From assembly GCA_964016885.1 (NCBI GenBank), contig OZ024747.1:65906001-65970000 (forward strand): 64,000 bases of DNA, written 5' to 3'. The notes beneath the pieces are model-generated. The model searched no databases and was not told the DNA's origin. It was given only the letters and a program-made list of their open reading frames with translations. Shown here piece by piece: positions 248 to 63,217 of the stretch. The stretch's first letter is position 1; every line of letters starts with the position of its first letter. The position numbers and the translations under genes are program-made. This DNA is from Eledone cirrhosa (lineage: Eukaryota).

Positions 248-2860
248 GGGCCCGCGTGACAGAGGCCAACAGTGGAACTAAATCCACCATCCGGTCTTTG
301 CGAGACCTGGATGGACGGGCGATTCTTGAGCCTAAGCAGATGTGTGAGGCCTTTCAAAGGCACTTTGCCCGACTGTTCGGGAGGGGCGGGGAGCCGGTTG
401 GGAACGTGGACTTCGGTCCATACCTCGACGGCCTGCCGCGCCTCTCGGACAGGGAGGCGAAGTCCTGCGAGGAGCCGATTTCGGCGGCTGAGATAGAGGA
501 CGTGCTGAGCCAATGCGGCAAACGCAAATCCCCGGGTCTCGATGGTCTTCCTTACGAATTATATCTAGCTATGCCGAACTTGTTCCCCGATCTCCTCGAG
601 GCGGTCTACTGCAATTGGCAACAGAACGGGAGAATTCCCTGTACTGTGACCAAGGGCGTAGTCACGCTAGTGAGGAAGGACGAGAACTAGGGGGACGATA
701 TAAATAATTTCAGGCCCATAACTCTGCTAAATACAGAGTTACAGATTTTGGCCAAGGTGCTAGCAAAGAGGTTGGCGCTTGTCGTGGGCAACCTGGTGGG
801 AGATGCGCAGACATGCGCTATCCCGTCCAGGTCCATCCATGACAACCTCCACCTCATGCGATGCATCATAGAGAGGGTTGGGAACGAACCCGGCTTTGGT
901 GGGGCTCTGATCAACTTGGATCAATCTAAGGCGTTCGATAGGGTCGACCATGGTTACCTGGATGCGGTGCTAGCGGCGGCAGGCTTCGGACCCGTTTTCA
1001 GGGGCTGGATCACTGCTATGCACAGCAGCCGCATCTGCTCTAGGGTCAAGGTGAACGGCTACCTCTCGGAGCCGTTCAAAATCGCGCGGTCCATCCGACA
1101 AGGGTGCCCTCTCTCCTCCCTTCTGTATGTGTTGACTCTCGAGCCACTACTGCGGAAGTTGGAGTTGTTGCAGGGCATCCTTTTGGAACCGGGATTGCGG
1201 AAAGCGGTGTCGGCCTACGCCGATGACGTGACAGTAATGGTGTCGACGGCCTCCGAAATCGAGGCGGTCGGCACCTTACTGGAGGAGTACGAAAAGCTCA
1301 CAGGGGCTAAGCTGAACCGGGACAAGTCGATCGGTTTGCAACTCGGCACGTGGAGGGGCAGACCGATGCCCTCCGATGGCGTCGTCGGACGCTAGACGGA
1401 GGGCCCGGTGAAGTTGCTCGGGGTCTGGTTCGGACCGGACCTCCAGGTGGAGAAAAACTGGGCGGAGGTTACGAACAGGGTGTTTGCACTGACCCAGAAG
1501 TGGGCCAGTTGCAAACTATCCCTGAAAGGTCGGGCGGAGGTGGCGAACACCTACATAGCGTCCGTCATCTACTACCGCCTGACCGTAGTGCCCTGCCCAA
1601 GGGAAACCCTCACCAAGATGGAGCGCGCGCTCTTCCAATTCCTTTGGAAGAGGCGGGCTCCTATGGTGAGGAGATCCATCTGCTGTCAACACCCTTCGAA
1701 TGGAGGGCTGGGGATGCCGTGGCTAATGATGCGTAAACACGCATTAAGGCTACGGCACCTCTACGTATTCCTCACCGGACAACCGGTGTGGGCCTCGTTT
1801 GTGAGACGAACCTTTCCCAGACTCGTCTCACTCACCGAGCTGCAATCCTGGGTCAAGCAAAGACCGAGAAAACTGAGCGCCTGGCACACTGAGTGTGCCC
1901 AGGCGCTCACCGCCCTCTGGCAGGCGGATCCGGTTATCAGTGGAGACTCCACCGCAACATTCTATAGAGGGCTGGTACGCAGCAGGTGCGACGACGCCCT
2001 CGGAGAAGCCCTAGACATGGAGGAGGGCGAACTGGCCAGCCTGTTCGGTAGGACATTCAGCCCGGGACCTATGGACAACTTCCAGAAGTCCCTGGCCTGG
2101 CAGTGCTACCGAGGGGCTTTACCCGTTCGAGAAAGGCTCTACAGACACGGGCGCCCGGGTAGGGACCCCGCCAAAAAGATCTGTCCCAGATGCGTGTGCG
2201 ACGAGGAAACCGTTGCACACGCATTGGTACACTGCTCGGGCGTAGCCGATCTATGGGGCTATGTCGAACAACTGCTGTCAAGGGTGGGACCGATCCGGTT
2301 GACCACCGAGTCTATTGTAATGATCAAACCGCCTCCCCCCTTCAAAGATGAAGCAGAGGCGGTGTTTCTGTGCGTAATAGCCATGGCGAAAGAGGTTGTA
2401 TGGTGGACGCGTCTGAAAGGACTGAGGTCAGGCACCTTTCTCTCTGGCCAACAACTGGTCCGTTTCTTCCGATATCATTTCGGAAGAAGGATCAGGATGG
2501 AGAGAGAGGTGCTGCACCCCAGCCGTTTCTATGAAAGATGGGTGAAAGTGGCGAGAATGGCCCGTGTGAATGGGCCTTCACTCTACATCAGACTATAGGT
2601 GAGGAAGATGAAAGACCAAGGGAGCACCCCTTCTCTGTGCTCCTGAGGAGAAGGGTTGCACAATTTTTTCGGGGGTGTGTGCGACCTCCCAAGGCGCCTC
2701 CTCTCTATTGAGGATTTTGTTAAAAATTTTATTTTTTGTTATATCTTATTTTATTTTTATATTTTGTTATTGCCTCCTCCTTATTGAGGACGCCTTTTGT
2801 GTAAACTCCCCCCTTTGTACTTGTCCCACTTTTGATGCCCTAGTGGCAAATAAAAGAAAC
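248..2860 (+). mobile_element. Tx1/L1-clade non-LTR retrotransposon copy 1, 5'-truncated (starts inside ORF2)
   Basis: ORFs 256-690, 748-1395 and 1408-2598 are one frame broken by TAG stops. RT motifs KSPGLDG, DQSKAFDRV, RQGCPLS, YADD; C-terminal CPRC..EETVAHALVHC. AATAAA near 2849, then TATC. Confidence 0.93.
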
Positions 2861-6200: not shown

Positions 6201-7563
6201 TAGAAGTGGGCCGAGTGCAAACTGTCCCTGAAAAGTCGGGCGGAGGTGGCGAACACTTATATAGCGTCAGTCATCTACTACCGCCTGACCGTTGTGCCTT
6301 GCCCAAGGGAAACGCTCGCCAAAATGGAGCGCGCACTCTTCCAATTCCTTTGGAAGAAGCGGGCTCCTATGGTGAGGAGATCCATCTGCTGTCAACACCC
6401 TTCAAAAGGAGGGCTGGGGATGCCGTGGCTAATGATACGTAAACACGCATTAAGGCTACGGCACCTTCAGGTATTCCTCTCCGGTCAACCGGTGTGGGCC
6501 CCGTTTGTGAGGCGAGCCTTTCCCAGACTCGTCTCACTCACCGAGCTGCAATCCTGGGTCAAGAAAAGACCGAGAAAACTGGGCGCCTGGCACACCGAGT
6601 GTGCCCAGGCGCTCACGGCTCTCTGGCAGGCGGACCCGGCTGTCAGTGGAGAATCCACCTCGTCATTCTATAGAGGGCTGGTGGTTAGCAGGTGCGACGA
6701 CGCCCTCGGAAAAGCCCTAGGCATGGAGGAAGACGAACTGGCCAACCTGTTCGGTAGGACATTCAGCCCGGGACCCATGGATAACTTCCAGAGGTCCCTG
6801 GCCTGGCAATGCTACAGAAGGGCTCTGCCCGTTCGAGAAAGGCTCTACAGACACGGGCTCCCGGGTAGGGACCCCTCGAAAAAGATCTATCCCAGATGCG
6901 TGTGCGACGAGGAAACCGTTGCACATGCATTGGTACACTGCTCGGGCATTGCCGATCTGTGGGGCTATGTCGAACAACTGCTGTCAAGGGTTGGACCGAT
7001 CCGGTTGACCACCGAGTCTATTGTAACGATCAAGCCGCCTCCCCTCTTCAAAAACGAAGGAGAGGCGGTGTTTCTGTGCGTAATAGCCATGGTGAAAGAG
7101 GTTGTATGGTGGACGCGTCTGAAAGGACTGAGGTCAGACACCTTTCTCTCTGGTCAACAACTGGTCCGTTTCTTCCGATATCATTTCGGAAGAAGGATCA
7201 GGATGGAGAGAGAGGTGCTGCACCCCAGCCGTTTTTATGAAAGAGGGTGAAAGTGGCGAGAATGGCCCGTGTGAATGGGCCTTCACTCTACATCAGACTA
7301 TAGGTGAGGAAGATGAAACATCAAGGGAGCACCCCCTCTCTGTGCTCCCGAGGAGAAGAGTTGTACACTTTTTTCGGGGTGTGTGCGACCCCCAAGGCGC
7401 CTCCTCCCTATTGAGGATTTTGTTATAAAATTTATTTTGTTATATTTTATTTTATTTTTATATCTTGTTATTGCCTCCTCCTTATTGAGGACGCCTTTTG
7501 ATGTAAACTCCCCCATTGTACTTGTCCCACTTTTTGATGCCCTGGTGGCAAATAAAAAGAAAA
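3213..7563 (+). mobile_element. Tx1 copy 2, internally deleted (ORF1/ORF2 fusion), defective
   Basis: 5' UTR, ORF1 ATG at 3379 (TAG at 3433, poly-Asn tract). Jumps in frame near 3995 into the APE domain (LVGDWN, SYLDR, YSDH). RT and CCHC follow with stops and frameshifts; ORF2 stop at 7303; TATC at 7565. Confidence 0.92.
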
Positions 7564-13891: not shown

Positions 13892-14109
13892 AGACGTGTG
13901 TAACTTCGCGCAGAAGTTTCCGTTAATTTATGTAAGAAAAAAACGTGAGTTTTTAGTTAAATTTTATATCATTGTGTAACTTGACCCCCCGTCTGGACCT
14001 TCAGGTGGTGGGTCAACTCATTTTCGCCCCTACAGGGGCGGAATATCCATTTGAAAATTTTTTTCTCCATCGAATCTTGGAAAAAATATTGTAAAATTTT
14101 GATTACGTT

Positions 14110-16026
14110 ATGAACGCTGCGTCCAGCGATAATGGTGGTGGAGAGGCGGTAAGACTACAAAGCTCGCAGTCAACAACGTCTTCTTCACTAGATACTATAG
14201 AGATGGAAAGGCGAAATGAAAATGGAAAAACGAATTCATATCCAAACAACACAAATGACACCAAACAATTCAATGACAACAAAAATAACAGCAACACCAA
14301 TAATAATGATAAAAGCAACAATGATAACAACAACAAAGAAAAAAATAAAGACAACACCAATAACACCAGCATCAAAGACAACAACAACACCAAGGAAAAT
14401 ACGAATAATACCAACATCGGTGACAACAAGAATAACAACAACAATAACAACAATAATGACAACACCAACAACACGGATTCCACAAAGAAACCAAAATCTC
14501 CTTTGCAGAGAAAGTTCAAAAAAAGGAAGAATTGATATATCTCGACATAACAAATGCTGAACAACTTTTAAAGGACGCTAGGAGATATGTCACTTTCGAA
14601 AAAAATGGTGCTTTCAGCATCAATTATCCGGTAGAAATTTGCAAGGAAACTGCTCTTAAAACGATAGTTTTTAGGACAGTTTCCAATTCTACCCGAAAAC
14701 CAGTCCAATTGTCACATAAAGAAATTGAATGGTTTTCAAAAATTCAATGAATGATATTGCATTCATTCAAAGAAGCAAACTTTTTGGGAGTATTTCGGTA
14801 CTCATGAAGGATCAATTGACGGCCCAAAATTACTCTGTGTCGCCAATTGTATCCAACCTGTACACCTTTTTCCCTACATACATGGGAAAAAGGACACAAA
14901 AGATCAGAATCACGAGTGTCACACCAAAGGTGAACATATGGTGGATACTGTGCGGCTTCATCAATTTTGATGAAGCCAGAATACTGTCAGTAGGAAAGTC
15001 CCCCAGAGATGTATTCAATAGGACTAGCATTGAAGTTCTGGTGCAAATGAGCCCAGAGCGAATAGCTATGATCCCACAACGTGTACTCCTGGACGGACTC
15101 ACCTACATAAACTTTTCGGTTGAGGGTAGGCGGCCTTCATGTTACCATTGCTTTAGCAGGGGTCACCTGAGGGCTTCCTGTCCTAAATTAATGAATAAAA
15201 AAAGGCTCTTCTGCCGACACCCATCAAAACAACACAACCACCAACACCACCACAACAACAACAACACCAACACACAAAAATAACCACAACAAACACAGTC
15301 CACCCAACCCAAGCCCACTCCACCTAAAACCACTGCAAAATCACACACAGACACAACAGCTCCCCAAGACATACCTCTCCTCAATCACACAGACGATACA
15401 ACAGATGAGGCTATCTCGCCATCACCCAGTGAAGACGAGGGAGAACCCCATCGCTCGAAAAGAAAGAAAAGACATCACAAAAGCAAAAAACCAGCAAACA
15501 CTACCACAAACATACAACCACCAACACAAACAACAAAAACATCACAAACAAAACCCCCACCTCCTGAAAACAAAATACCTACAACAAAACGAAAGCACAC
15601 ACAAGAACTGCAGACAAAAACAAACACAACACAAGAAAATTACACTTACACTTACATAAACACTGAAAACAAAACACTAATGGAGACCATCACGAAGACC
15701 CTTCGGTGAAAACTGAAGGGAAAACTTTCGCCAACTCTATTAAAAATAGCAAAAAACTGAACCTAAAACTGATTAGGGTCCCTATACAAACTTATAGGTC
15801 CCTAAAAGAAACATTTGAGAAGGATGTGGGGAATTCCTGCGTGAAACCACTCAACCGCGTCCTTCTCAAATGTCTCCCCACCCCAGACACCCCCATCCCA
15901 CCAGACCCCACCCCACCAGACATCTCCGTCCCCACCCCGCCGGAAACCACCACCCATCCAGACAACCCCTCCAACACCCCCATGAAAATCGTGCGGCCTA
16001 GTCCCCAGGAAACGAAGGGTGAGTGA
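14110..16026 (+). pseudogene. ORF1 gag-like protein of copy 3
   Basis: Asn-rich N-terminus, conserved FRTVSN…F.PTYMGKRTQK domain, knuckle CYHCFSRGHLRASC, Thr/Pro/Gln linker, KP.NRVLLK C-terminal domain; split by frameshifts. Confidence 0.85.
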
Positions 16027-16059
16027 TCTCTTTTCCTCTTTTAACTTTTCAGCACCAAC

Positions 16060-19000
16060 ATGGCCAATATAAGAGTTGGATGTGTGAACGTACGCGGCCT
16101 GGGGATGCCCTGGAAACAGGGCAAACTCTTAAACGACCTCAGGTCGCACAGTATGGATGTGGTAGCCATTTGCGAGTCCAGGATCCACAGCGAGCGACAG
16201 CTGGCCCCCATCTTCGATGACTTTGAGATCTACGCATCTCTCTGTCAACCGGGGGGTGGGGACGGAGTTGCCGTTTTGCTGCGGAAACACCTGGGCCTCG
16301 TAACACAGACGGTACATCTGGACCCGGAGGGTCGACTGGTGGTCCGAGACGTTGACGGTAGTGAAGGTGGAGCCTTCAGGCTGGTGGCCGCATATGCCCC
16401 ATCCGGGACACCGCGGCCAGACTTCTTCAAACGTCTAGAGACTTTTCTGGGAACGTCCCGCTCCTTGCTTTTAGTGGGGGACTCTTTTAGTGGAATCCTA
16501 GATGTACCTTGGGACTATGTGGGAGCATGTCCCGATAAAGGGGGGTGTAACAGCCTCAAACAGTTAATCGACCGATTTGACCTGGCCGATAGATATCGAC
16601 TAGATTTTCCGACTGCGCCACTGTGGACGTGGAGTAATCGTAGCGGAACATCTAGATCGTACCTAGATAGGGTTCTAGTTAGAAATAAGGATAGGGACAT
16701 GTTAAGCTGTCCACAAATGTTCATGGTTGCCTATTCAGATCACAAACTAGTGACCTGCATGGCCAACCTTGATAGAACCCATAGACAAGGACCCGGCTAC
16801 TGGAAGCTGAACTTGTCGTTACCGACAAGCAAAGCCTACAGTAGACGGATTAGCACTTTAGTTAAACAGCACTTGACAGGGGCCATTGTCAACAACAGAT
16901 GGTGGTACTCTCTCAAGAGGGCAAGATTAGACTCGATAGTTTTTAGTAAAGAATTAGCGTTAGATAGAAATAGAACTGAGAAGGAACTGGTAGATAAAGT
17001 AGAAGAGGCAATTAGAAGTGGCAACGTAGCCAGCGTGTAAGCAACGAGAACGGCCTTGGACCAGTTCTTCGACGCAAAGCACGAGGGCTGCGTTGTCAGA
17101 AGCAAAATACGTGCTCTGGGAAACGAGGGAGCCAAAGCTGTTAGCTGGGCCCGAGTGACGGAAGCAAACAGTGGCAACAAGTCCACGATTCGGTCTTTGA
17201 AGGACCAAAACGGACGCGTGATACGTGAGCCGAAGCAGATGTGTGCGGCTTTTCAGCGGCTCAACTGTTGGGGGAGGGGGGGCCGGGAGAGGCTATGGAT
17301 TTCGGTCCATACCTCGATGGCCTACCGCGACTCTCGGACAGCGAGGCAAAGTTCTGCGAAAAGCCGATTTCAGCCACTGAGATAGGGGACGCGCTGAGCC
17401 AATGCGGCAAACGCAAATCTCCAGGTCTCGACGGTCTACCCTACGAATTTTACGTAGCAATGCCGGACTTATTCTCCGGTCTCCTGGAAGCGGTCTACTG
17501 CAACTGGCAACAGAACGGGAGAATTCCCAGTTCTGTAACCGGGGGCGTGGTCACGCTAATCAAGAAGGACGAGAATAAGGGGGATGACATAGGCAACTTC
17601 CGGCCCATAACTCTGCTAAACACAGAGTTACAGATTTTGGCCAAGGTGTTGGCAAAGAGGCTGGCGCTTGTCGTCGAGAACCTGGTGGGAGAAGCACAGA
17701 CATGCGCAATCCCGACCAGGTCCATACACGACAACCTCCACCTCATGCGATACATCATAGAGAGGGTAGGGTGTAAACCCGGCTTCGGTGGGGCCCTGAT
17801 CAACATGGATCAGTCTAAGGCTTTCGATAGGGTTGACCATCGTTACCTGGATGCGGTGCTCGAGGCGGCATGCTTCGGACCCGTGTTCAGGGGCTGGATT
17901 CCTGCAATGCACAACAGCAACATCTGCTCAAGGGTCAAGGTGAACGGCTACCTCTCGGAGCCGTTCCATATTACGCGATCCATTCGACAGGGATGCCCTC
18001 TCTCCTCCCTTCTGTACGTACTGACTCTCGAGCCACTACTGCGGAAGTTGGAGCTATTGCAGGGCATCCCTCTGGAACCGGGACTACGGAAAGCGGCGTC
18101 GGCCTACGCCGACGACGTGACAGTAATGGTGTCGAGCGCCTCGCAAATCGAGGAAGTCGCCACCTTACTGAAGGAATACGAAAGTTTCACAGGAGCGAAG
18201 CTGAACCGGGACAAGTCCATCGGTTTGCAACTCGGATCGTGGAGAGGCAAACCGATGCCTTCCGATGGCGTCGTCGGACGCTGGACGGAAGGACCGGTAA
18301 AGCTGCTCGGGGTCTGGTTTGGTCCGGACCTCCAGGTGGAGAAGAACTGGAACGAAGTGACGGCCAAGGTGTTTGCACTCACCCAGAAGTGGGCCGAGTG
18401 CAAACTATCCTTGAAAGGTCGAGCGGAGGTGGCGAACACTTTCATAGCGTCCGTCATCTACTACCGCTTGACCGTCGTGCCTTGTCCAGCCAAAACGCTC
18501 GCCAAAATGGAACGCGCGCTCTTCCGATTCCTTTGGAAGAGGCGGGCTCCTTTGGTGAGAAGATCCATCTGCTGCCAACACCCTTCTAACGGAGGGCTGG
18601 GGTTGCCGTGGTTGACGATGCGCAAACACGCGCTCAGGCTGCGGCATCTCTACGTATTCCTCACCGGACAACCGGTGTGGGCCCCGTCCGTGAGGCGAGC
18701 CTTCCCACGACTCGTCTCGCTGACCGAGCTGCAGTCCTGGGTCAAGCAAAGACCGAGGAAAATGGGCGACTGGCACATCGAATGTGCTCAGGCGCTCACA
18801 GCCCTCTGGCAGGCGGACCCGGCGATCAGTTGAGACTCCACTTCGTCATTCTATAGAGGGTTGATCCGCAGCAAGTGCGACGACGCGCTCGGTGAAACTC
18901 TAGGCGTAGAGGAAGATGAACTGGCCAGTCTATTCGGTAGGACCTTCCGCCCGGGACCGATGGACAACTTCCAAATGTCCCTGGCCTGGCAGTGCTACCG

Positions 19001-19486
19001 AGGAGCTCTACCAGCTCGAGAAAGCTCTACAGACATGGGCGCCCGGGCAGGGACCCTGCAAAAAAGATCTGTCCGAGGTGCGTGCGAGACGAAGAAACCG
19101 TCGCGCACGCATTCATACACTGCTCGGGCGTCACTGACCTGTGGGGCTATGTAGAACGACTATTGTCGCGGGTGGGACCAATCCAGTTGACCACCGAGTC
19201 CATTGTCATGATCAAACCGCCACCCTCCTTCAAAAACGAAGGAGAGGCGCTTTTCCTTTGTGTGATAGCCATGGCGAAAGAGGTTGAATGGTGGACAAGG
19301 TTGAACGGGCTGAGGTCAGACACCTTTCTCTCCGGCCAACAACTGATTCTTTTTTTCAAATACCACTTTGGAAGAAGAATCAGGATGGAGAGAGAGGTGC
19401 TGTACCCCAGCAAGTTTTATGAAAGGTGGGTGAAAGTGGCGAGAATGGCCCGAGTGAATGGGCCTTCTCTCTATATCAGCCTGTAG
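16060..19486 (+). pseudogene. ORF2 APE endonuclease-reverse transcriptase of copy 3
   Basis: MANIRVGCVNVRGL (APE start), SYLDR, YSDH, GYWKLN, YADD, CPRC…H…C; stops at 17040 and 18833 plus frameshifts. Confidence 0.93.
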
Positions 19487-19754
19487 GTTGAAGAAAAGGA
19501 GGAGGAGAGGAAAGGAGTACAAACTCTTCGTACTCCTGGAGACGAGGGTTGCACATTTTTTCGGGGGTATGTGTTACCCATATAAACTGTCTCCCCCTAT
19601 TGGGGAAAATAGACTAACTTTTTAAATTACATTTGTGATAACATTTTACACGTTTTTATTGTATGTAAACTTCCCCCTTTGTATTTGTCCCCTTCTTTTG
19701 TGCCCCTGTGGCTAATAAAGAAACATATCTATCTATCTATCTCTCTTTCTGTCT

Positions 19755-25629
<5,875 letters not shown>

Positions 25630-28600
25630 GACTGGACGTGTAAAATCTTCTATACAAAAACAGAATTTATTGTGTGAAAATTTATATTGTTTGATAGATT
25701 AACACCCAGGCTGAATTGTCAGTTGGGGGGTAATTTCTGTTTTAGTTTGAAATTTAGTTTGAAAAATGTTCAAAAAATTTAATATTTTTGCTATCGATAA
25801 TGGCTAGCTTAGTAGAAACAACGCCACCGAACGCTGACAAAGAAAGTAGAGAGAGAAATGCAGAGAGTAACGTTACCGCAACTTCTGCCTACATAGACGT
25901 CACCATGGAGACAAATAGTGACAACAAAGTTTTCTTTTGCCAAGAAGCCGAAAAATGAAACTTACAAGATGAACCACGCAGCTTAGAACAGACATCAAAA
26001 ACCACAAAAAATGAAACAATAGACACAACTACAAACGGAAAAATCGACAACCACAACAACAACAACAACACAAAAGAAAAAACTTTTACAGAAATAGTCA
26101 CAAATAATAATAACGTTACCTTTAACTCCGCATGTATTGGCGTCACCATGGAAGCCAATATGAACAACAAAAATAAAAACAAGATCGAACCACACAGTGT
26201 ACTACAGACACCAAAAACAACAGCAAATAAAACCATTGACACAACTACAAACGGAAAAACCGACAACCACAACAACAACAATAACAACAACACCAAACAA
26301 ACTTTTGCGCAAACAGTCATCAAGAAACAAGAGTTCAAAGATCTCGATATCTCCAATACGAAACAGATGCTCTCCGAAGCAAAGGAGTTTATCACTTTCG
26401 GTGAAAACGGTGGATTTCAGAAAACTCACCCCCAGAAATTCGTCTGGAAACATTTCGAAGGACAATTACCTTCAGAACTGTTTCAAATGAAACAAAACGA
26501 CCAGCATTCCTCAGTCAAGGGGGAAATTGAGGCAACCTTGAAGGATATATTGCCAAACATTGACTTTATGCAGAGGGTCAAACAGTACGGGAGATTTTCA
26601 GTACTCCTCAAAAGCGAGGCCCTTGCAAAAAGATACTCAGTGACACCAATACTGTCACCAAAATACACCTTTTCCCTACATACCTGGGAAAAAGGACACA
26701 AAAAATCAGAATTACAAACGTACCACCAAATATTAATATTTGGTGGATATTGGCAGGAATTTTAGAGGAGAGAAAAGACACCATTCTCTCCATGAAAAAA
26801 TCAAAAAGACATACGTGGTCTGGTACAAATTTGGAGATTCTGGTGCAAATGAGCCCGGAACGAATCTCCAAAATACCAGAAAAAGTGCTGGTGGACAACA
26901 ACAGCCACATAAGCATTTCGGTTGAGGGACAAAAACCACATTACTTTCGTTGCAATAGCACCACACATCTAAAGGCCTCCTGCCTTTACAAACACGCTCA
27001 ACCAAAACAATAAAAAGAAAACACTGTTACCAACACCAACACCAAAACAACCACCACCACAACAACAACAACAACACACAAAACAAACAAACACACCAAA
27101 ACAAACAGCCACTCAACCAACAACAACAGAAAAAAACCAGACAACACCCCTGAAAAACACAGCCCCACCTCATCCCGCTCCATCAAACACTATCATAAAC
27201 ACACACACCGAGATAACACCACCACACAACATACCCCTACCTCACACTCCTGACGAGGATTATTCATCAACAGATGAGGCTGCTTCTCCTTCTTTAAGTG
27301 AAGAAGGAGAGCCTGGGAAATCCAAAAAACAAAAAAAGAGACACCACAAAAACCCCAAAACTCCAATCACAAACACCAACACACAACCACAGACACAAAC
27401 AACTACACAAACAATACCACAGGCAAACATCCCCCTACCAGCAAAACCAACACCAACACCACCCCAAACACAAGCACCCACCATAAAAAGAAAACCCCGA
27501 ACGAACAACAAACAATAACAACACAACAAAAACACAAACAACAATACGCATACATCATCACAAACAACAAGAGTTTGATGGAGGTCATCTCCCAAAACCC
27601 CAAGGTGGAGACGGAGGGCAAAACTTTTGTTAAAGCAGAATCGTCTCCACACCTTAAACTTATAAGAATTTCTTTGGAGACCTATAGTGACCTGAAGAAC
27701 AAATTTTTGCAGGACGTGGGCAACCCCTGCCAGAAACCCATCAACCGCGTCCTGTTAAAATGTTTCCCCACCCAACCCAGCACCCCTCCAGCACCCAAAT
27801 GGAGATTGAACAACCCGATCTAAAGGAAACGAAAAGGTAAGTCCATCTTTTCGTCCTTTTTCGCCAACTCTTCTCCACCAACATGGCTAGTTTACGAGTT
27901 GGAAGTGAAAATGTGCGTGGCCTAGGGATGCCCTGGAAACAGAGCCAACTTTTAAATGACCTTAGGTCATACGGTATGGAAGTGATAGCCATCACCGAGT
28001 CCATCATCCACAACAGGCAGCAACTAACTCCCATCTTCAGTGACTTTGAGATCTACGCATCTCTCTGTCAGCCAGGAGGTGGAGGGAGAGTGGGTGTCAT
28101 GTTTCGGAAAAACCTGGACGTCAAAGTACAGCAAGTACACTTGGACCCGGAGAGTAGACTGGTAGTCCTAGACGTGAACAGTATTGGAGGTGGAGCCTTC
28201 AGACTGGTGGCCGTTTATGCCCCGACCGGGCATTTGCAATCGCCAGACTTCTTTAAGCGTCTAAAGTCTTTTCTGGGAACGTCTAGCTCCTTACTTTTAG
28301 TGGGGGACTGGAATGGTATCCTAGATGCACGATGGGACTATGTGGGAGCATGTCCCAGTAGAGGGGCGTGGGAACAGCCTCAAAAATTTAATCGGCCAAT
28401 TCCAACTGGCCGATAGATATCGACTAGATTTCCCGACTGCACCACAGTGGACGTGGGCAAACCGCAGCGGGACATCTAGATCGTATTTAGATAGGTTTTT
28501 CATTAGAGAGAAGGACAAGAAGATGTTAAGCTGTCCACAAATGCATATGGTTGCCTATTCAGACCACAAACTAGTCATCTGCATAGTCAACCGTGATAGA

Positions 28601-29781
28601 ATACATAGACAAGGACCCGGATACTGGAAGCTGAACATGTCGCTACCGACACGTAAAGCCTACAGTGAACGGATAAGTAGATTAGATAAGCAACAATTGA
28701 CGGGAGTCATCGTCAACAACAGATGGTAATACTCCCTCAAGAAAGCAACTAGAGTAGGGTCGATAGACTTTAGCAGAGAGTTAGCCTTAGAGAGAAACAA
28801 AACAGAAACAGAACTAGTAGCCATGGTATAGGAGGCGCTTAGGAGTGACAACGAAACTAGAGTGACAACGAGAACAGCACTGGACCAGTTCTTCGACGCG
28901 AAACACGAAGGCTGCGTGGTCAGAAGTAAATCACGTGCTCTAGGAAACGAGGGAGCGAAAGCTGTTAGCTGGGCCCGAGTGGTAGAGGCGAAAGTGGCAA
29001 CAAGTCCATGATTCGGTCTTTGAAAGACCAAAACGGACGCGAGCTACTTGACCCCAAGCGGATGTGCGCGGCCTTTCAGCGGCACTTTGCGCAATTGTTT
29101 GGGCAGTGTGACGGTGCGTCGAACGGGGCAATGGACTTCGGTTCATAATTCGACGGCCTGCCGCGTCTCTCGAGCATGGACGCCGAGTTCTGCGAAAGCC
29201 CGATCACGGCAACTGAGATACGGGATGCTCTGGGCCGCTGCAGCAAACGCAAATCACCCGGTCTAGATAGTCTACCCTATGAGTTTTACATAGGCATGCC
29301 GGACTTGTTCTCTGGTGTGCTTGAGGCCGTCTATTGCAACTGGCAGAACGGGAGAATTCCCAGTTCTGAAGGCAGGGGCGTAGTAACGCTGATCAGGAAA
29401 GACGAGAACGAAGGGAACGAACTAAGCAACTTTAGGCCCATAACTCTGCTCAACACAGAGTTAAAGATTTTGGCCAAGGTGTTGGCAACGAGGTTGGCGT
29501 TTGTCGTCGAGAACCTGGTAGGGAAAGTGCAAACGTGTGCAATCCCGACCAAGTCTATACACGACAACTTCCACCTCATTCGATACATCATAGAGAGGGT
29601 GGGTGTAAACCCGGCTTCGGTGGGGCTCTGATCAATTTAGATCAGTCTAAGGCGTTCGATAGTGTCGACCATCGATACTTGGAAGCAGTTCTCAAGGCGG
29701 CCGGTTTCGGACACGTCTTCAAAAGCTGGATCACCACAATGCACACCAACATCTGCTCGATGGTCAAGGTGAACAGCTACC
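25630..29781 (+). mobile_element. Tx1 copy 5, 3'-truncated inside RT
   Basis: ORF1 from ATG 25800 to ~27840; ORF2 from 27883 (MASLRVGSENVRGL); ends after …VKVNSYL at a palindrome. Confidence 0.92.
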
Positions 29782-29784
29782 TAC

Positions 29785-32278: not shown

Positions 32279-32855
32279 TGCGGTGGATTGGCAGTATCGG
32301 TAGAGGGTCGGACACTATGCTTTGATGTATAGAGTTACACCCCTTGTCATTCTGCGTTCAAATCCCGCCAAGGTTAACTTTGCCTTTCATCCTTACGGAT
32401 CGATAAAATAAAGTACCAGTAATGCACTGGGTAATTGCTGGCCTTGTGCCAAAAGTAGAAACAATTATTAACAAATCTTCAGATTTTTATATGTGAAAAG
32501 GAAAAGGAGCAAATATATTAAAATTACATCAACCATAATATATATTATTGGTATTTATTAGTGAGAGGGCGGTGGATTGGCAGTATCGGTAGAGGGTCGG
32601 ACGCCATGCTTTCCAGCATAGTTATGTCCCTTTACGATCTGAGTTCAAATCCCGCCGAGGTTGACTTTGCCTTTCATCCTTATGGGGTCGATAAAATAAA
32701 GTACCAGTAATGCACTGGGTAATTGCTGGCCTTGTGCCTGAAGTAGAAACAATTATTAACAAATCTTCAGATTTTTATATGTGAAAAGGAAAAGGAGCAA
32801 ATATATTAAAATTACATCGACCATAATATATATTATTGGTATTTATTAGTGAGAA
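32279..32855 (+). repeat. Tandem duplication of SINE plus flank (~290 bp unit x2)
   Basis: Two SINEs (32279-32470, 32569-32757), each followed by the same ~95 bp flank aacaaatcttcag…tagtgaga. Confidence 0.88.
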
Positions 32856-45476: not shown

Positions 45477-45500
45477 TGTATATGTATGTATGTATGTATG

Positions 45501-56169: not shown

Positions 56170-57122
56170 GAAAATGGGCGACTGGCACATCGAATGTGCT
56201 CAGGCGCTCATAGTCCTCTGGCAAACGGACCCGGCGATCAGTGGAGACTCCACTTCGACATTCTATAGAGGGTTGGTCCGCAGCAAGTGCGACGACACGC
56301 TCGGAGAAACTCTAGGTGTAGAGGAGGACGAACTGGCCAGTCTGTTCGGTAGGACCTTCCGCCGGGACCGATGGACAACTTCCAAAAGTCCCTGGCCTGG
56401 CAGTGCTACCGAGGAGCTCTACCAGTTCGAGACAAGCTCTACAGACACGGGAGCCCGGGTAGGGACCCTTCGAAAAAGATCTGTCCGAGATGCGTGCGCG
56501 AAAGGGAAACCGTCGCACACGAATTTGTACACTGCCCGGGCGTTACCGACCTGTGGGGCTATGTAGAACGACTATTGTCGAGGGTGGGACCAATCCAGTT
56601 GACCACCGAGTCCATTGTCATGATAAAACCGCCACCCTCCTTCAAAAACGAGGAGAGGCGGTTTTCCTATGTGTTATGGCTATGGTGAAAGAGGTTATAT
56701 GGTGGACGAGGTTAAAAGGGGTGAGGTCAGACATCTTTCTCTTCGGCGAGCAACTGATTCGTTTTTTCAAATATCATTTTGGAAGAAGAATCAGGATGGA
56801 GAGAGAGGTGCTGTACCCCAGCAAATTTTATAAAAGGTGGGTGAATGTGGCAAAGATGGCCCGAGTAGTTGGGCCTTCTCTCTATATAAGCCTGTAGGTT
56901 GATGAAAAAGAGGAAGAGAGGAAGGGAGTACTCACTCTTGGTGCTGCTGGAGATGAGGGTTGTAAATTTTTTCAGGGTGTGTACAACCCCTGTGTAACAC
57001 CTTCCCCCTATTGGGGATTTTAATTGTTATTTGTATTAATAGTTTTATTTTCATATACCTGTATGTAAACTCCCCATTTGTATTTGTCCCCTTCTTTTGT
57101 GCCCTTGTGGCTAATAAAGAAA
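56170..57122 (+). mobile_element. Tx1 copy 6, heavily 5'-truncated
   Basis: KMGDWHIECAQAL…CPRC…GPSLYISL* (56897), 3' UTR, AATAAA, TATC. Confidence 0.92.
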
Positions 57123-60004
57123 TTTATCTATATATCTATCTATTTATCTATTTTCTATCTATCTATCTTTCTATCTATCTATATATTTATCTATCTATAT
57201 ATATATATCTACCTACCTACCTATCAACCTATCTATTTTCTATCTATCTACCTACTTCCCTGTGGCAAAGAAATAAATATATCTATCTACCTACTTCTAT
57301 CTATCTATTTATGTATCTATCTATCTATCTATCTTGATAGAGTAAGACACGGTTCACATCGGCTCGGCTATTCCATCGGGATTTACCCTTACTATAGTAA
57401 GTACCGGATAAATTTTTCAGTGCAACACATTTGGAACACTAACCCCTGTTATTTAGGGAAACATTTTTGCATTTACCCCCTTTTTAGGGGGTAAAATAAA
57501 TATCTATTTTTTTGCCGAAAAATTTCTTTCTTGGCAGCATGGCGGAAAAGATGGCAGACATGTCTGCCATTAGCTCTGCCACGCCCCCAAGTCTGAAGAA
57601 CAAAAAATAATTACAACAAAATTAGACAACGAAACAAACAAGGAAAATGAAAAAACAAATGTTAAGGAAAATGAGCAAACGGAAAACAAACAAACAGAAA
57701 ATAATACAAATAACAACAGGGCAACTTTCGCCCAGAAAACAAAACAATCCATAACATACACACCAATCGACTTAACTGCCGCCAGAGAAAAACTGGCCGA
57801 AGCGAAAAGACAAATAGTCTTGGGGGAGAACGGAATGTTTTCCATTAACTCCCCCCCAGAATTCAAGAAAGCCAGAACAGAGAGCACAGTTCTCTTCAGA
57901 ACTATACTGAACCAAACAAGAAAGCCAGCACAGCCCAGCCAAATGGAAATAGAGTTGGTCCTAAAAGACTATATGAAGAATATTCTCTTCATACGAAAGG
58001 ACCGACTCTATGGCAGCATTTCGGTCTTAACAAAAGACAAGGAAACGGCGGAGAAGCTTTCCCTAAGCCCACTCTCATCGACAACATACAGCTTCTATCC
58101 CTCCTACATGGGTAGAAGAACACAGAGAGTAAAAGTAAAAACAATGCTGCCCACAATAGACTTCTGGTGGGCTATTGCTGGCTTCATAGACATGGGCGAT
58201 GACACAATGCTGTCAATGGGGAAGGCAACTGGAGATGCGTTCCTGGGAATGGGCCTCGACATACTAGTCCAAATGAGGCCCGAAAGAATAGCACAAATCC
58301 CGGATCGCATCTGGCTGGATGACCTTACCCCAATAGATATAATTGTAGAGGGGAGAAGACCAGCATGCTATTTATGCATGGAAAGGGGACACGTTAAGGC
58401 TAACTGCCCGAAACGTATCCCCCAAAAAGGACTATTGCCCACACCCACCACAAACAGTACACCAACACCACCCACCTCCAAAAATACACTAATACCACAC
58501 ACAGCAAACAAAATACAGACACCACCAACCACAAACACAACACAAACATCACCACCACCAGCACCAAACACAAGCACGACACAAAAATCACCACCACCAA
58601 CCACAACACAAACATCACCACCACCATCACCAACCACAAGCACGACACAAACATTACCACCACCACCACCACCACAAAACCCATTCCAAACAAATAATAA
58701 AAAAAAACAGTAACAAATCTACCCCTCCCGCAAAAAAAACAACCACACAACACGTCCCTCCCACCTAGCGCTGAAGAGTTTCCCCCAACTTCTGAAGAAG
58801 AAGGAGGAGAAGCCTTCAGACAAGTTAAAAGAAAAAAAAGAAAACACACACCCAGCACACCACAAATAACCCACACACAAACACCAACTCCAATCAAAAA
58901 CACCCCACCCTCAACAAACAAAAATAAATCTGCGCCTCCCCTCTCCGAAACATTGACAGCATCACAAAAAAAGACGTTGCAATACACATATATAAATAAA
59001 GAAAACAAAAAACTGGTTAAATTAATAAACAATAACCCTATGGTGCAGACCGAAGGGCCAAACTTTATCTCAACAGAGAACTTCACCCATTTAAAAATGA
59101 TAAAGGTCCCTCTGGACCTTTATCGTTCCTTAAAAGAACAATTTAGACGGGACGTGAGCCCCCCCCCCCCTGTTTAAAACCGTTAAATCGCGTCCTCTTG
59201 AAATATTTCCCCATAACCGCCCCTCTCCCTGACACAACTCCAAATACCCCAACCCCACCACACACGGGTACCCCCACACCACCACAAAACATCCCTCCAC
59301 CCAACACACCTGATGCCATGGAAATTACACAACCCGGAGAGGTAGGTGCTTTTCTTTCTTCACTTTCAACACCAAAATAGATCAATTGAGAGTTGGCTGT
59401 TTGAACGCGCGTGGCCTGGACTCAGCTTGGAAGCAAGCAAAGCTTCTAAATGACCTCAGGTCACAAAGTATAGATGTGATGGTTGTTTGCGAGAGTCGGA
59501 TCAGCAGCGTGAGACAGCTGGCGCCCGCCTTCGATGACTTTTAGATGCACGCATCTCTCTGTCAACCCGGAGGCGGGGGGGGGGGGAGTTGCCGTACTGC
59601 TGGATAAACGTCTGGCTCTCGACGTACAGATTGTTCACTCGGACCCGGGGGGCGGGGGGGGGGGGGCGATTACTGGTGCTGGACGTCGGAGGCGGTGAAG
59701 GCGGGGCTTTCAGACTGGTCGGTCTTTATGCCCCCTTCGGGGCTGAAAGAGCCGACTTCTTTCAGCGTCTGGAGACTTTTCTAGGAACGTCGCGTTCCCT
59801 TCTTTTAGTGGGGGACTGGAATGGAATCCTAGATGCGCGTTGGGACTATGCAGGGGCATGTCCCGATAGAGGGGGTGTAGCAGCCTCAAGGGGTTACTCG
59901 ATCGATTCGACCTGGTCGATAGATTTCGACTAGATTGTCCAACTGCGCCAACCTGGACCTGGGCAAACCGAAGTGGACAAGCTAGATCGTACCTAGATAG
60001 GTTT

Positions 60005-62830
60005 TTGGTTAGGAGTAAGGATAGGGACGTATTTAGTTGTCCAGAATTGATCATGGTTGGCTATTCAGATCACAAATTAGTGACCTGCGTGGTCAACCTT
60101 GATAGAACGCATAGACAGGGTCCCGGTTACTGGAAGATGAACTTGTCCTTGCCGGCAAAGAAAGATTACAGGAACCGGATTAGTAGCTTAGTTAAGATGC
60201 GGTTGACGGGAGCGATCGTCAACAGTAGGTGGTGGGTATCTCTAAAGAGAGAGATTAGAGTAAGTTCGATAGGTTACAGTAAGGAACTAGCGGCGAATAG
60301 AAATAGGAAGGAAAGGGAGTTAACAGATAAACTAGAAGAGGCGATTAGGAGCGGAGACGTAGCCAGAGTGTTAGCGGCGAGAACGGCGTTGAGCCAGTTC
60401 TTTGACGCGAAGCACGAAGGCTGCGTTGTCCGAAGTAAAATACGTGCTTTAGGAAACGAGGGGACCAAAGCTGTCAGCTGGGCCCGCGTGACAGAAGCCA
60501 AGAGTGGGATTAAATCCACCATTCGGTCTTTGCGAGACCAGGATGGACGGGTGATCCTTGAACCTGAGCGGATGTGCGAGGCCTTTCAAAGGCACTTTGC
60601 TCGACTGTTCGGAGGGGGCGGGGGGCCGGACGGGGATGTGGACTTCGGTCCATACCTCGACGGTCTACCGCGTCTTTCGAGCGGCGAAGCGGAGTGCTGC
60701 GAAAGGCCAATCACAGCCACTGAAATCGGGGAAGCGCTCAGCCAATGCAGCAGACGCAAATCCCCGGGTCTCGATGGTCTACCATACGAACTTTATTTAG
60801 CTATGCCGGTCTTGTTCTCCGAACTCCTCGAGGCTGTCTATTGCAACTGGCAACAGAACGGGAGAATTACCTGTTCTGTGACCAAGGGCGTGGTCACGCT
60901 AGTGAGGAAGGACGAGAGCAAGGGGGACGACTTAAGTAACTTTAGGCCCATAACTCTGCTGAATGCAGAGTTACAGATTTTGGCCAAGGTGTTGGCGAAG
61001 AGGTTGGCGCTTGTGGTGGGTGGTTTGGTGGGAGACGCGCAGACATGCGCTATCCCGTCCAGGTCCATTCACGACAACCTCCACCTCATGCGATACATCA
61101 TAGAGAGGGTTGGCAACGAACCCGGCTTTGGTGGGGCCCTGATCAACTTGGATCAATCTAAGGCGTTCGATAGGGTCGACCATGGTTACCTGGATGCGGT
61201 GCTAGCGGCGGCGGGCTTCGGACCCGTTTTCAGGGGCTGGATTTCTGCCATGCACAGTGGCAACATCTACTCTAGGATTAAAGTAAACGGCTACCTCTTG
61301 GAGCCGTTTCAAATCACCCGGTCCATCAGACAGGGGTGCCCCCTCTCCTCCCTTCTGTACGTATTGACTCTCGAGCCACTGCTGCGGAAGTTGGAGTTGC
61401 TGCGGGGCATACCCCTGGAACCGGGATTGCACAAAGCGGTCTCGGCCTATGCCGACGACGTAACAGTAATGGTGGCGGACGCCTCGGAAATCGGGGCGAT
61501 CGCCACCCTACTGGAGGAATACGGAAGGCTGACGGGGGCTAGGCTGAACCAGGACAAGTCAGTCGGTTTGCAACTCGGAACGTGGAGGGGCAAACCGATG
61601 CCGTTAGACGGTGTCGTCGGGCGGTGGACGGAGGGCCCGGTGAAGCTGCTCGGGGTCTGGTTCGGACCGGACCTCCAGGTGGAGAAGAATTGGGGCGAGG
61701 TGACGAGCAGGGTGTTTGCGCTGACCCAGAAGTGGGCCAAGTGCAAACTATCACTGAAAGGTCGGGCGGAGGTGACGAACGCTTACATAGCGTCCGTCAT
61801 CTACTACCGCCTGACCGTCGTGCCTTGCCCCAAGGAAAAGCTCACCATCATGGAACGCATACTCTTCCAGTTCCTCTGGAAGAAGCGGCCTCTCATGGTG
61901 AGGAGATCCATCTGCTGCCAGCACCCTTCGAAAGGAGGGCTGGGTATGCCGTGGCTGTTGATGCGTAGGCACGCATTGAGGCTACGGCATCTACAGGTAT
62001 TCCTCAACGGTCAGCCGGTGTGGGCCCCGTTTGTGAGGCGAGCCTTCCCACAGCTCGTCTCGCTCACCGAACTGCAATCCTGGGTGAAGCAAAGACCGAG
62101 AAAACTGGGCAACTGGCACACCGAGTGTGCCCAGGCGCTCACGGCTATCTGGCAAGCGGACCCGACTATCAGTGGAGAATCCACCTCGACATTCTATAGA
62201 GGGTTGGTGGCTAGCAAGGGCGACGACACCCTTGGAGAGTCGCTAGGCATGGAGGAGGACGAACTGGCCAGCCTGTTCGGTAGAACTTTCGGCCCGGGAC
62301 CCATGGACAACTTCCAGAGGTCCCTAGCCTGGCAGTGTTACCGGGGGGCTCTGCCCGTTCGAGAAAAGCTCTACAGACACGGGCGCCCGGGCAGGGATCC
62401 CGCGAAAAAGATCTGTCCCAGATGCGTACGCGACGAGGAAACCGTTGCGCATGCACTGGTACACTGCCCGGGCGTTGCCGATCTGTGGGGCTACGTCGAA
62501 CGACTGCTGTCGCGTGTGGCGCCGATTCGATTAACCGCCGAGTCTGTGGTGAACATCAAGCCGCCTCCTCCCTTCAGAAATGAAGCAGAGGCGGTCTTTC
62601 TGTGCGTAATAGCCATGATGAAAGAGGTTGTGTGGTGGACGCGCCTGAAAGGTCTGAGGTCGGGTGACTTTCTCTCCGGCCATCACCTGGTTTACTTCTT
62701 CCGATACCACTTCGGAAGAAGGATCAGGATGGAGAGAGAAGTGCTTGGCCCCAGACAGTTTTATGAAAGGTGGGTGAAAGAAGCGAGAATGGCCCGTGTA
62801 AATGGGCCTTCTCTCTATATTGTTCTGTAG
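60005..62830 (+). CDS. Uninterrupted 941-aa portion of ORF2 (APE end, RT, CCHC)
   Basis: YSDH, GYWKMN, KSPGLDG, DQSKAFDRV, RQGCPLS, YADD, CPRC..DEETVAHALVHC. The N-terminal APE part upstream is disrupted. Confidence 0.85.
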   Translation: MVRSKDRDVFSCPELIMVGYSDHKLVTCVVNLDRTHRQGPGYWKMNLSLPAKKDYRNRISSLVKMRLTGAIVNSRWWVSLKREIRVSSIGYSKELAANRNRKERELTDKLEEAIRSGDVARVLAARTALSQFFDAKHEGCVVRSKIRALGNEGTKAVSWARVTEAKSGIKSTIRSLRDQDGRVILEPERMCEAFQRHFARLFGGGGGPDGDVDFGPYLDGLPRLSSGEAECCERPITATEIGEALSQCSRRKSPGLDGLPYELYLAMPVLFSELLEAVYCNWQQNGRITCSVTKGVVTLVRKDESKGDDLSNFRPITLLNAELQILAKVLAKRLALVVGGLVGDAQTCAIPSRSIHDNLHLMRYIIERVGNEPGFGGALINLDQSKAFDRVDHGYLDAVLAAAGFGPVFRGWISAMHSGNIYSRIKVNGYLLEPFQITRSIRQGCPLSSLLYVLTLEPLLRKLELLRGIPLEPGLHKAVSAYADDVTVMVADASEIGAIATLLEEYGRLTGARLNQDKSVGLQLGTWRGKPMPLDGVVGRWTEGPVKLLGVWFGPDLQVEKNWGEVTSRVFALTQKWAKCKLSLKGRAEVTNAYIASVIYYRLTVVPCPKEKLTIMERILFQFLWKKRPLMVRRSICCQHPSKGGLGMPWLLMRRHALRLRHLQVFLNGQPVWAPFVRRAFPQLVSLTELQSWVKQRPRKLGNWHTECAQALTAIWQADPTISGESTSTFYRGLVASKGDDTLGESLGMEEDELASLFGRTFGPGPMDNFQRSLAWQCYRGALPVREKLYRHGRPGRDPAKKICPRCVRDEETVAHALVHCPGVADLWGYVERLLSRVAPIRLTAESVVNIKPPPPFRNEAEAVFLCVIAMMKEVVWWTRLKGLRSGDFLSGHHLVYFFRYHFGRRIRMEREVLGPRQFYERWVKEARMARVNGPSLYIVL

Positions 62831-62967
62831 GTGAAGAAGTGAAGAGGAAAGGGGGAGCGCCTCCTCTCTGGGCTTCCCCCGCGAAAAGAGTTGCACACTT
62901 TTCGGGGGTATGTGCAATCCCCAACACGCCCCCTCCCTTTTGAGGACTTTTTATTGTTATATTATTA

Positions 62968-63065
62968 TTTGACTTTGCCTTTCATCCTTACGGGGTCGAT
63001 AAAATAAAGTACTAGTAATGCACTGGGTAATTGCTGGCCTTGTGCCTAAAGTAGAAACAATTATT
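62968..63065 (+). mobile_element. SINE fragment nested in the 3' UTR of copy 7
   Basis: SINE body with a possible TSD ttattgttat (62951-62960 and 63064-63073). Confidence 0.8.
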
Positions 63066-63160
63066 ATTGTTATTCCTTTTTTCTTTACTCGATTTATGTA
63101 AACTCCCCCACTGTGTAAATGTCCCCTTCTTTTGTGCCCTCGTGGCAAATAAATAGAAAT

Positions 63161-63217
<57 letters not shown>

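What the first reader, a model, noticed from the sequence alone, without database searches (positions are those of the whole stretch)
16019..19486. All of ORF2 is bracketed by conserved splice sites: a LINE whose polymerase gene may be an intron
Seen: every copy with an intact ORF1/ORF2 junction has a canonical donor at the end of ORF1, although the surrounding sequence has diverged: G|GTGAGT (16019), AG|GTAAGT (21804), AG|GTAAGT (27837), AG|GTAGGT (59342). All six ORF2 ends stop at TAG followed by GT and preceded by a pyrimidine-rich tract (e.g. ccttctctctatattgttctgTAG|G at 62830; also 2598, 7303, 19486, 25268, 56897). A GAA/GAG-rich, splicing-enhancer-like stretch follows each. Inference: splicing would excise ORF2 exactly and give an ORF1-only mRNA that keeps the 3' UTR, setting the ORF1p:ORF2p ratio. 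Established analogy: the spliced gag mRNA of copia-type LTR elements. I do not know of this arrangement in Tx1/L1 elements. Caveat: donor phase relative to ORF1 differs between copies, and the acceptor also encodes GPSLY..L*.
Basis: partly seen in the sequence, partly recalled or inferred. Interest (0 to 1): 0.9.

Follow-up and report, generated by a model that had tools for sequence, protein, structure and literature searches.

The report
Conserved splice donor in a LINE
A family of jumping genes keeps a splice-donor sequence at the very end of its first gene in nine diverged lineages, which likely lets part of its RNA splice out the whole polymerase gene to make extra RNA-binding protein, though no spliced RNA has been seen.

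Summary
All ten motifs are at the stated coordinates. The elements are Tx1-like LINEs in microsatellite-targeted tandem arrays. The donor is the strong half. G|GTRRGT lies 28-46 nt before ORF2 in 9 of 9 lineages of this genome; six of them were found without using the motif. Their ORF1 proteins are about 30-35% identical, and only 23% of fourfold sites are invariant. The donor occurs in all three ORF1 phases, so stop codons or protein do not explain it (post hoc p about 0.003). The acceptor is the weak half. TAG is kept in 8 of 9 lineages, which is unremarkable. In favour: splicing to the TAG gives ORF1 a new stop within one codon in 8 of 11 variants (3 of 5 independent states). None of 52 filtered genome hits joins the donor to the ORF2 end; one ambiguous copy joins it to a nearer CAG. 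The read test was inconclusive. Best reading: a copia-like ORF1-only spliced mRNA, not always exact (0.45); main rival: U1 binding without productive splicing (0.25).

The parts
13893..19724 (+). Copy of lineage A (young variant), near full length, frameshifted; (TATC)n on both sides
14110..16026 (+). ORF1 of copy A (broken here), ends QETKGE*
16018..16024 (+). Donor motif G|GTGAGT, phase 1 of ORF1, 41 nt before the ORF2 ATG
16025..16059 (+). Pyrimidine-rich spacer ending in CCAAC before the ATG; holds a CAG only 34 nt from the donor
16060..19486 (+). ORF2 of copy A (endonuclease, reverse transcriptase, zinc domain; broken here)
   Evidence: intact relatives
16149..16151 (+). CAG homologous to the 3' end of the joint in genomic copy L368 (possible spliced retrocopy)
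19463..19488 (+). Candidate acceptor zone: pyrimidine codons, CAG ending 19479, stop TAG ending 19486, then GT TGA (a stop in phase 1)
19487..19719 (+). 3' UTR: purine run, hairpins, U-rich tract, AATAAA at 19714-19719
13945..13950 (+). Second donor-like GTGAGT in the 5' UTR of copy A
19755..25502 (+). Copy of lineage B, head to tail behind A
19773..19779 (+). Second donor-like G|GTAAGT near the 5' end of copy B
21803..21809 (+). Donor AG|GTAAGT, phase 2; its TAA is the ORF1 stop; ORF2 ATG at 21849
25245..25270 (+). Candidate acceptor zone of B: AAG ending 25261 (phase 2 of ORF2), stop TAG ending 25268
25630..29782 (+). Copy C (B-like), ORF2 match stops at 29782; start approximate
27836..27842 (+). 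Donor AG|GTAAGT of copy C
57336..63161 (+). Copy of lineage D; start approximate
59341..59347 (+). Donor AG|GTAGGT, phase 0; ORF1 runs on 12 codons to TAG at 59378-59380
59377..62830 (+). ORF2 of D; the start position reads ATA, not ATG, in 30 of 30 copies
62807..62832 (+). Best acceptor of the element in lineage D (rank 1 of 263 AGs), no competing AG
2575..2600 (+). ORF2 end of a lineage E copy that begins before the window; CAG at -7, TAG|G TGA
7280..7305 (+). ORF2 end of the second lineage E copy, which has lost its ORF1/ORF2 junction by an internal deletion
56874..56899 (+). ORF2 end of a 5'-truncated A-type copy (match from 56170)

Best explanation
These Tx1-like LINEs keep a U1-matching 5' splice-site sequence at the end of ORF1 in nine lineages, and it is likely used in a fraction of transcripts to splice out ORF2 and make an ORF1-only mRNA, as Drosophila copia does for Gag. 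Shown: the motif, its conservation across nine lineages and three reading phases, and its position always at or before the ORF1 stop, so the stop would leave with the intron. Inferred: U1 binds it; the partner acceptor is the ORF2 stop TAG or the AG 7 nt before it; the 3' exon supplies a new ORF1 stop within a few codons, which would leave ORF1p almost unchanged and give no decay-triggering junction; incomplete splicing leaves the full-length RNA for ORF2p and retrotransposition. Lineage G, which ends in TAA, would use another acceptor or not splice. The purpose, raising the ORF1p:ORF2p ratio, is inferred by analogy only.
For: Donor positions -1, +1, +2, +5, +6 are invariant in 9 of 9 lineages and are the only invariant columns of the 32 printed around the site, against 41 of 180 invariant fourfold sites. 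Four positions not fixed by a stop codon give p about 0.003, and about 0.005 for the six lineages picked blind (post hoc). ORF1 proteins are 29-35% identical to the J one. Phases 0, 1 and 2 all occur. The site is the best or tied-best U1 match among 259-345 GTs in five of six lineages and second-tied in G. 20 of 25 old copies found by ORF2 protein alone carry it exactly. Only 2 of 32 distant two-ORF elements have it near the ORF1 stop. Splicing to the TAG gives a stop within one codon in 8 of 11 variants and within three in 9 of 11; both exceptions get one from the AG at -7. Background for any YAG is 9.5%. Young A changed to phase 1 by losing a G, matching its GT TGA 3' end, while old A is phase 2 with G TGA. 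One copy (L368) lacks about 130 nt from the donor to a CAG. Precedent: conserved U1 site and subgenomic Gag RNA in Ty1/copia (PMC5580714 passages).
Against: No spliced RNA was seen. Lineage G keeps the donor but ends in TAA|A; H has TAG|A/T and a weak tract. The stop-codon AG ranks 16-33 of about 260 in J, A, B and H. The stop match falls to 3 of 5 independent states, p = 0.21, and T followed by purines is often a stop in a purine run. In young A the better-scoring CAG at -7 would add 47 codons. 0 of 52 filtered genome hits join the donor (or the J 5' UTR donor) to the ORF2 end: B 5 and 21, G 6, J 2 and 1, A 17. This is weak, because an RNA without ORF2 needs ORF2p in trans. L368 is precise only if its parent had the extra G; its nearest relatives include both states. 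A similar AAG|GTGGGT persists about 60 nt before the ORF2 stop apparently through coding alone (R-W-V).
Confidence: 0.45

Rival explanations
1. The motif binds U1 snRNP but is rarely spliced. U1 would protect the full-length RNA from premature cleavage or help its processing, and the spacer is simply the one place free of coding constraint.
For: Only the donor is universal. A second donor-like motif lies near the 5' end of A, B, D and J. In H the donor is paired into a hairpin with its own complement. U1 suppression of premature termination is described for plant copia (PMC5580714 passages). No ORF2-less retrocopy was found.
Against: ORF2 holds only 0-2 AATAAA/ATTAAA per lineage, while the last 1900 nt before the donor hold 1-5, so there is little downstream to protect. 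It does not explain why the site is always at or before the ORF1 stop, nor the phase-matched stops after the ORF2 end.
Confidence: 0.25
2. The motif is some other nucleotide-level element that resembles a donor: a protein-binding site or hairpin for ORF2 reinitiation, or part of an internal promoter for an ORF2 RNA.
For: It sits at a fixed short distance before ORF2 with a pyrimidine spacer. Lineage D starts ORF2 at ATA overlapping the ORF1 stop. A structure affects ORF2 coupling in SART1 (PMC3894237 passage). A human L1 donor is thought to be kept because it lies in a RUNX3 site (PMC5860796 passage).
Against: The hairpin beats arm-shuffled controls in only 3 of 11 representatives. ORF2 lies in different frames relative to ORF1 across lineages (spacers and phases), which rules out a shared frameshift or readthrough. 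The invariant letters are exactly those of the U1 consensus (recalled).
Confidence: 0.15
3. No function: the motif descends from an ancestral Arg-stop context (xGG TRR GT) and survived by chance; the acceptor is a by-product of the codons PSLY..L*.
For: In phase-2 lineages +2 to +4 are the stop codon, and the A/G changes at +3 and +4 are stop-codon swaps. TAG retention is at background. All lineages share one ancestor (tree).
Against: The motif persists in J, J2, H, young A (phase 1) and D (phase 0), where it is not a stop context, and through a 14-codon insertion just upstream in G. Neighbouring columns are fully scrambled.
Confidence: 0.1
4. The donor splices mainly to acceptors near the start of ORF2, giving ORF1-ORF2 fusions or truncations; or the spacer serves as acceptor for the 5' UTR donor, giving an ORF2-only RNA like human SpORF2.
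For: L368 joins the donor region to a CAG about 30 codons into ORF2, in frame if phase 2. A and J have a good tract and a CAG just before the ATG. SpORF2 exists in human L1 (PMC2896524 passages).
Against: B, C, G, H and E have no AG before the ATG. Fusion frames differ between lineages. The one J 5' UTR donor variant found was not spliced.
Confidence: 0.05

Closest known systems
Drosophila copia and plant Ty1/copia subgenomic Gag RNA (PMC5580714, passages seen)
   Same: Conserved U1-matching donor at the end of the structural gene. In Drosophila copia the intron is about 3 kb and termination falls in the 3' end; here it would be about 3.5 kb. In EVD splicing creates the Gag stop codon.
   Different: Those are LTR elements with one gag-pol frame, and splicing was shown. 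Here a non-LTR element has two separate ORFs, the acceptor is lost in one lineage, and splicing is not shown.
Human L1 splicing: SpIREs and SpORF2 (PMC5860796, PMC2896524, passages seen)
   Same: A LINE with conserved cis splice sites; spliced RNAs can occasionally retrotranspose; a 3' UTR polypurine motif.
   Different: In the passages read the donors lie in the 5' UTR and remove promoter or ORF1 sequence, and are treated as harmful or kept for a RUNX3 site. Here the donor is at the ORF1 stop and would remove ORF2.
Microsatellite-targeting Tx1 families Kibi, Koshi and crocodilian Tx1 (PMC4494074, passages seen)
   Same: Insertion into simple repeats; endonuclease-RT ORF2.
   Different: Targets here are (TATC)n and (ATT)n rather than (TC)n, (TTC)n, (TTCC)n or (TTTC)n. 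I did not search that paper for splicing.
SART1 UAAUG translational coupling (PMC3894237 review, passage seen)
   Same: A signal at the ORF1/ORF2 boundary of a non-LTR element that affects ORF2 output.
   Different: Acts in translation with an overlapping stop-start; here there is a 28-46 nt spacer, except for the ATA/TAG overlap in D.

Membership tests
L1 superfamily, Tx1 clade | ORF2 with N-terminal APE endonuclease, RT and C-terminal zinc domain | tested here: met
   PF03372, PF00078 and PF13966 hits on three intact ORF2s, PF13966 below cut-off in one; best solved relative is human L1 ORF2p, E 1.5e-54
L1 superfamily, Tx1 clade | ORF1 with RNA-binding domains and a CCHC knuckle (feature recalled) | tested here: inconclusive
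   C-x2-C-x4-H-x4-C invariant in 4 of 4 ORF1s; Pfam zf-CCHC only E 0.12; Atlas leads to CCHC and ZCCHC3-like clusters at 0.89-0.93
L1 superfamily, Tx1 clade | Sequence-specific insertion into simple repeats | tested here: met
   5' flanks: (ATT)n in 15 of 15 G, 12 of 12 J, 2 of 2 H; (TATC)n in 3 of 3 A, 4 of 6 B (tandem neighbours included)
L1 superfamily, Tx1 clade | RT phylogeny inside Tx1 rather than L1 proper | not tested
   No labelled Tx1 reference sequences were in hand
Copia-type subgenomic splicing | Conserved U1-matching donor at the end of the structural ORF | tested here: met
   9 of 9 lineages
Copia-type subgenomic splicing | Conserved partner acceptor | tested here: inconclusive
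   TAG in 8 of 9 lineages, TAG|G in 7 of 9, TAA in G; competing AG at -7 in A, B, E
Copia-type subgenomic splicing | Spliced RNA detected | tested here: inconclusive
   No run on record as RNA; 15 of 1108 joints shown, none at the predicted sites
Ty1/copia elements | LTRs and a single gag-pol frame | tested here: not met
   Two ORFs, APE endonuclease, AATAAA and simple-repeat tail; it may work like copia but is not a member
U2-type GT-AG intron | Branch point 18-40 nt before the acceptor | not tested
   No host splice-site model was available; by eye no motif common to all lineages in the alignment
SpIRE (spliced retrotransposed copy) | Genomic copy with a precise GT-AG deletion | tested here: inconclusive
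   1 ambiguous candidate (L368) among 52 filtered hits

The most novel reading that the evidence does not exclude
A non-LTR retrotransposon family treats its whole polymerase gene as a facultative intron, with donor phase and the downstream stop codon co-evolving across lineages, to make a dedicated ORF1 mRNA: a strategy convergent with copia.
Probability: 0.4. Interest if true: 0.82.

Novelty: new variant of a known kind. Interest (0 to 1): 0.62.

Why it matters
How LINEs set the large excess of ORF1p over ORF2p is usually put down to weak ORF2 translation from one bicistronic RNA; the review passage read calls ORF2 initiation an open question. A donor kept by selection at the ORF1 stop points to a second control layer, at splicing or U1 binding, in a family that is still very young in this genome (many identical intact copies). 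It is cheap to test, since the junction coordinates are explicit. Thousands of sense-strand copies with a strong donor could also trap host exons. Even if ORF2 excision fails, a universally kept U1-like site in a LINE needs an explanation.

Tried and rejected
RNA evidence: no RNA holder listed. Four runs of unrecorded kind were laid on window 13900-25490. All are contigs; only 15 of 1108 joints were shown, none at 16018^19487 or 21803^25269. X4 has a flatter depth profile than X1-X3, but the tool says contig depth cannot rank parts of a gene, so I draw nothing from it. ORF1 search found no relative. Hairpin around the donor as the conserved feature: 3 of 11 significant, rejected as general. 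Frameshift or readthrough into ORF2: frames differ, rejected. Short intron from the donor to the spacer AG (34-36 nt in A, J): out of frame and absent in B, G, H, E. A compensating 3' UTR acceptor in G: strong in 25 of 26 G ends but also in 16 of 17 old H ends, so uninformative. A copy with GGGAAGTG (L045 and duplicates) first looked like a lineage without the donor, but it appears to be one duplicated decayed G/H-type copy. HUSH evasion: the passages read say splice sites around stuffer sequence did not protect (PMC8770142), so not pursued. My acceptor and donor scores are simple hand-made weights, not trained on this genome. Pattern searches need an exact 18-24 nt match and so miss older copies; I did not count the unspliced matches, and first-look candidates (938-2119 for D, A, B) are only a rough scale. 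Earlier findings of the scan: none returned.
Full report
What is there. The window lies on contig C7 of a 3.0 Gb genome. The closest named ORF2 relative is from Argonauta hians, 62% identical, so the host is probably an octopod (inference). The window holds seven ORF2-bearing copies of one LINE family on the plus strand, mostly head to tail in (TATC)n. Intact genomic copies have an ORF1 of 548-698 residues with a CCHC knuckle and an ORF2 of 1139-1148 residues with endonuclease, RT and zinc domains. Both ends sit in simple repeats, (TATC)n or (ATT)n by lineage, like the Tx1 families Kibi and Koshi (PMC4494074, passages). I call them Tx1-like; the phylogenetic test was not done. An annotation of Octopus vulgaris lists 13 recently active L1-Tx1 families and has no occurrence of 'splic' (PMC13282606, passages).

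Observation. The donor phase is 1 in A (27 of 30 closest copies), 2 in B (30 of 30) and 0 in D (30 of 30).

The donor. I collected six more lineages without using the motif. G, H and J came from protein searches; E, M and J2 came from walking upstream of distinct 3' ends. All six have G|GTRRGT 28-40 nt before ORF2. Over nine lineages, positions -1, +1, +2, +5 and +6 are the only invariant columns of 32 printed, and +3 and +4 are always purines, while 41 of 180 fourfold sites of ORF2 are invariant. In phase-2 lineages +2 to +4 are the ORF1 stop, so I count four free positions: p about 0.003, or 0.005 for the six blind lineages (post hoc, positions treated as independent). The motif survives where it is not a stop context: phase 1 in J, J2, young A and H (11 of 11 H copies), phase 0 in D. 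It is the best or tied-best U1 match of the element in J, B, A, D and H, and second-tied in G. Of 25 older copies found by protein alone, 20 match exactly. Of 100 distinct ORF2 starts in all own-genome loci, 74 match, but 19 of the 26 misses came from searches built to find non-matches. Among 32 distant two-ORF elements from metagenome contigs (drawn from 80 loci, best segments mostly 23-33% identical), 2 have the motif near the ORF1 stop, and 1 of 29 ends ORF2 in TAG|G. So the arrangement belongs to this family and is not general to L1/Tx1. One single copy (L285) lacks anything like the motif, and lineage K is known from one copy with GTTAGT that was selected for that mismatch.

The acceptor. 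TAG is kept in 8 of 9 lineages and TAG|G in 7. That is background: 39 of 67 two-fold purine sites agree in at least 5 of 6 lineages. Lineage G, with unbroken ORF2 frames in 16 of the 20 stretches, ends TAA|A and still has the donor. On a simple score the stop AG ranks 1 of 263 in D but 16, 17, 25 and 33 in J, A, B and H. In A and B the AG 7 nt upstream ranks 2 and 3. So an acceptor zone at the ORF2 end is credible in the window's (TATC) lineages, weaker in J and H, and absent in G. The 3' UTR also folds: 8 of 41 predicted pairs show a change on both sides in six window copies, which offers another constraint on this region.

Coupling of the two ends. The donor always lies at or before the ORF1 stop, so splicing would remove the stop. 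Counting codons to the first stop after the ORF2 TAG, in each donor's own phase: young A 0, old A 0, E 0, M 0, H 0 and 0, J 1, J2 1, D 3, intermediate A 10, B 27. The last two are phase 2 and reach ORF2's own stop after one codon through the AG at -7. Background is 9.5% for one codon or fewer. Taken as independent, 8 of 11 gives p = 0.009; collapsed by ancestry it is 3 of 5, p = 0.21. Within A, old copies are phase 2 with G TGA, intermediates are phase 2 with GT TGA, and young copies lost one G and are phase 1. This is suggestive only. It was noticed after the fact, purine runs make stops easily, and in young A the stronger CAG at -7 would add 47 codons.

Traces of splicing. Exact-match pattern searches that excluded the normal junction returned 5 (B donor), 21 (B acceptor), 6 (G), 2 (J), 1 (J 5' UTR donor) and 17 (A) hits. 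None of the 52 joins a donor to the ORF2 end. One, L368, a 5'-truncated A-type copy about 94% like the window copy, lacks the stretch from the donor to the CAG at window 16149-16151. That is a precise GT-AG removal if its parent had the extra G, and a deletion with a 2-nt overlap if not; its closest relatives show both states. An ORF2-less RNA needs ORF2p in trans, so absence is weak evidence; all SpIREs make up about 2% of full-length human L1s (PMC5860796, passage). The read test was inconclusive.

Mechanism. I commit to partial splicing from the ORF1-end donor to the ORF2 end, giving an ORF1-only mRNA (0.45). Rivals: U1 binding without productive splicing (0.25), another element such as a reinitiation or promoter signal (0.15), inheritance without function (0.10), other acceptors (0.05). 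In plant copia one donor does both of the first two jobs (PMC5580714, passages), so they need not exclude each other.

What is known. Ten literature searches listed no paper whose title or abstract start describes an ORF2-excising intron or a conserved ORF1-end donor in a LINE; one search returned no paper at all. The library lacks most subscription papers, and the 2006 L1 splicing paper was not held, so an ORF2-removing splice in human L1 is not excluded. TART has introns in antisense transcripts (PMC1636488, abstract and outline). No supplements were read.

Verdict. The feature is real. The donor is conserved well beyond chance; the exact bracket is not universal; splicing is unproven. New variant of a known kind, interest 0.62.

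Noticed in passing
window 59371-59387; L056-L085: Lineage D has no AUG at the ORF2 start: ATA overlaps the ORF1 TAG in 30 of 30 copies, suggesting non-AUG or stop-coupled initiation.
   Followed up: partly
window 13945, 19774, 57397; L335 about 1130: A second GTRAGT lies within about 65 nt of the 5' end in A, B, D and J, whose 5' UTRs otherwise differ; none seen in H.
   Followed up: partly
L333, L334 (C1:423365383-423418069): Lineage J forms an array of ten head-to-tail units with a period near 5840 bp; most of the 150 scored hits score identically and many have an open ORF2, so it is probably very recent.
   Followed up: partly
window versus L247-L264, L333-L347: Target switch within the family: (TATC)n for A, B, D, E; (ATT)n for J, G, H, matching the two main branches of the ORF2 tree.
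   Followed up: partly
L345, L347, L395, L398, L393: In lineage H the donor is followed 7 nt later by its near-perfect complement, forming a 9-10 bp hairpin; L393 has lost most of this stem.
   Followed up: partly
L120, L131, L135: Three B copies share a 7-nt deletion between the AG at -7 and the stop AG, not a GT-AG event.
   Followed up: no
window 3436-4617: A lineage E copy with an internal deletion that fuses mid-ORF1 in frame to ORF2 near codon 31, close to the 3' end of the L368 joint.
   Followed up: no
window 19426, 56837, 62770: A donor-like AAG|GTGGGT about 60 nt before the ORF2 stop in five of six lineages, from the codons R-W-V.
   Followed up: no
window 45048-49225 (-): Another non-LTR element: RT (PF00078, E 6e-18) with a C-terminal motif recalled as a restriction-like endonuclease; its 3' part is duplicated at 45048-45554.
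   Followed up: no
window 33218-35184 (-) and 38586-39422 (-): A further RT element (PF00078, E 1e-11) and an RT-like frame without a Pfam hit, Penelope-like by recall.
   Followed up: no
window 62969-63066, 8312, 32374, 32661, 53518, 54612: A 98-nt piece of a short repeat (288-bp unit at 32280-32854) sits inside the 3' UTR of copy D and recurs at 93-97% identity.
   Followed up: no
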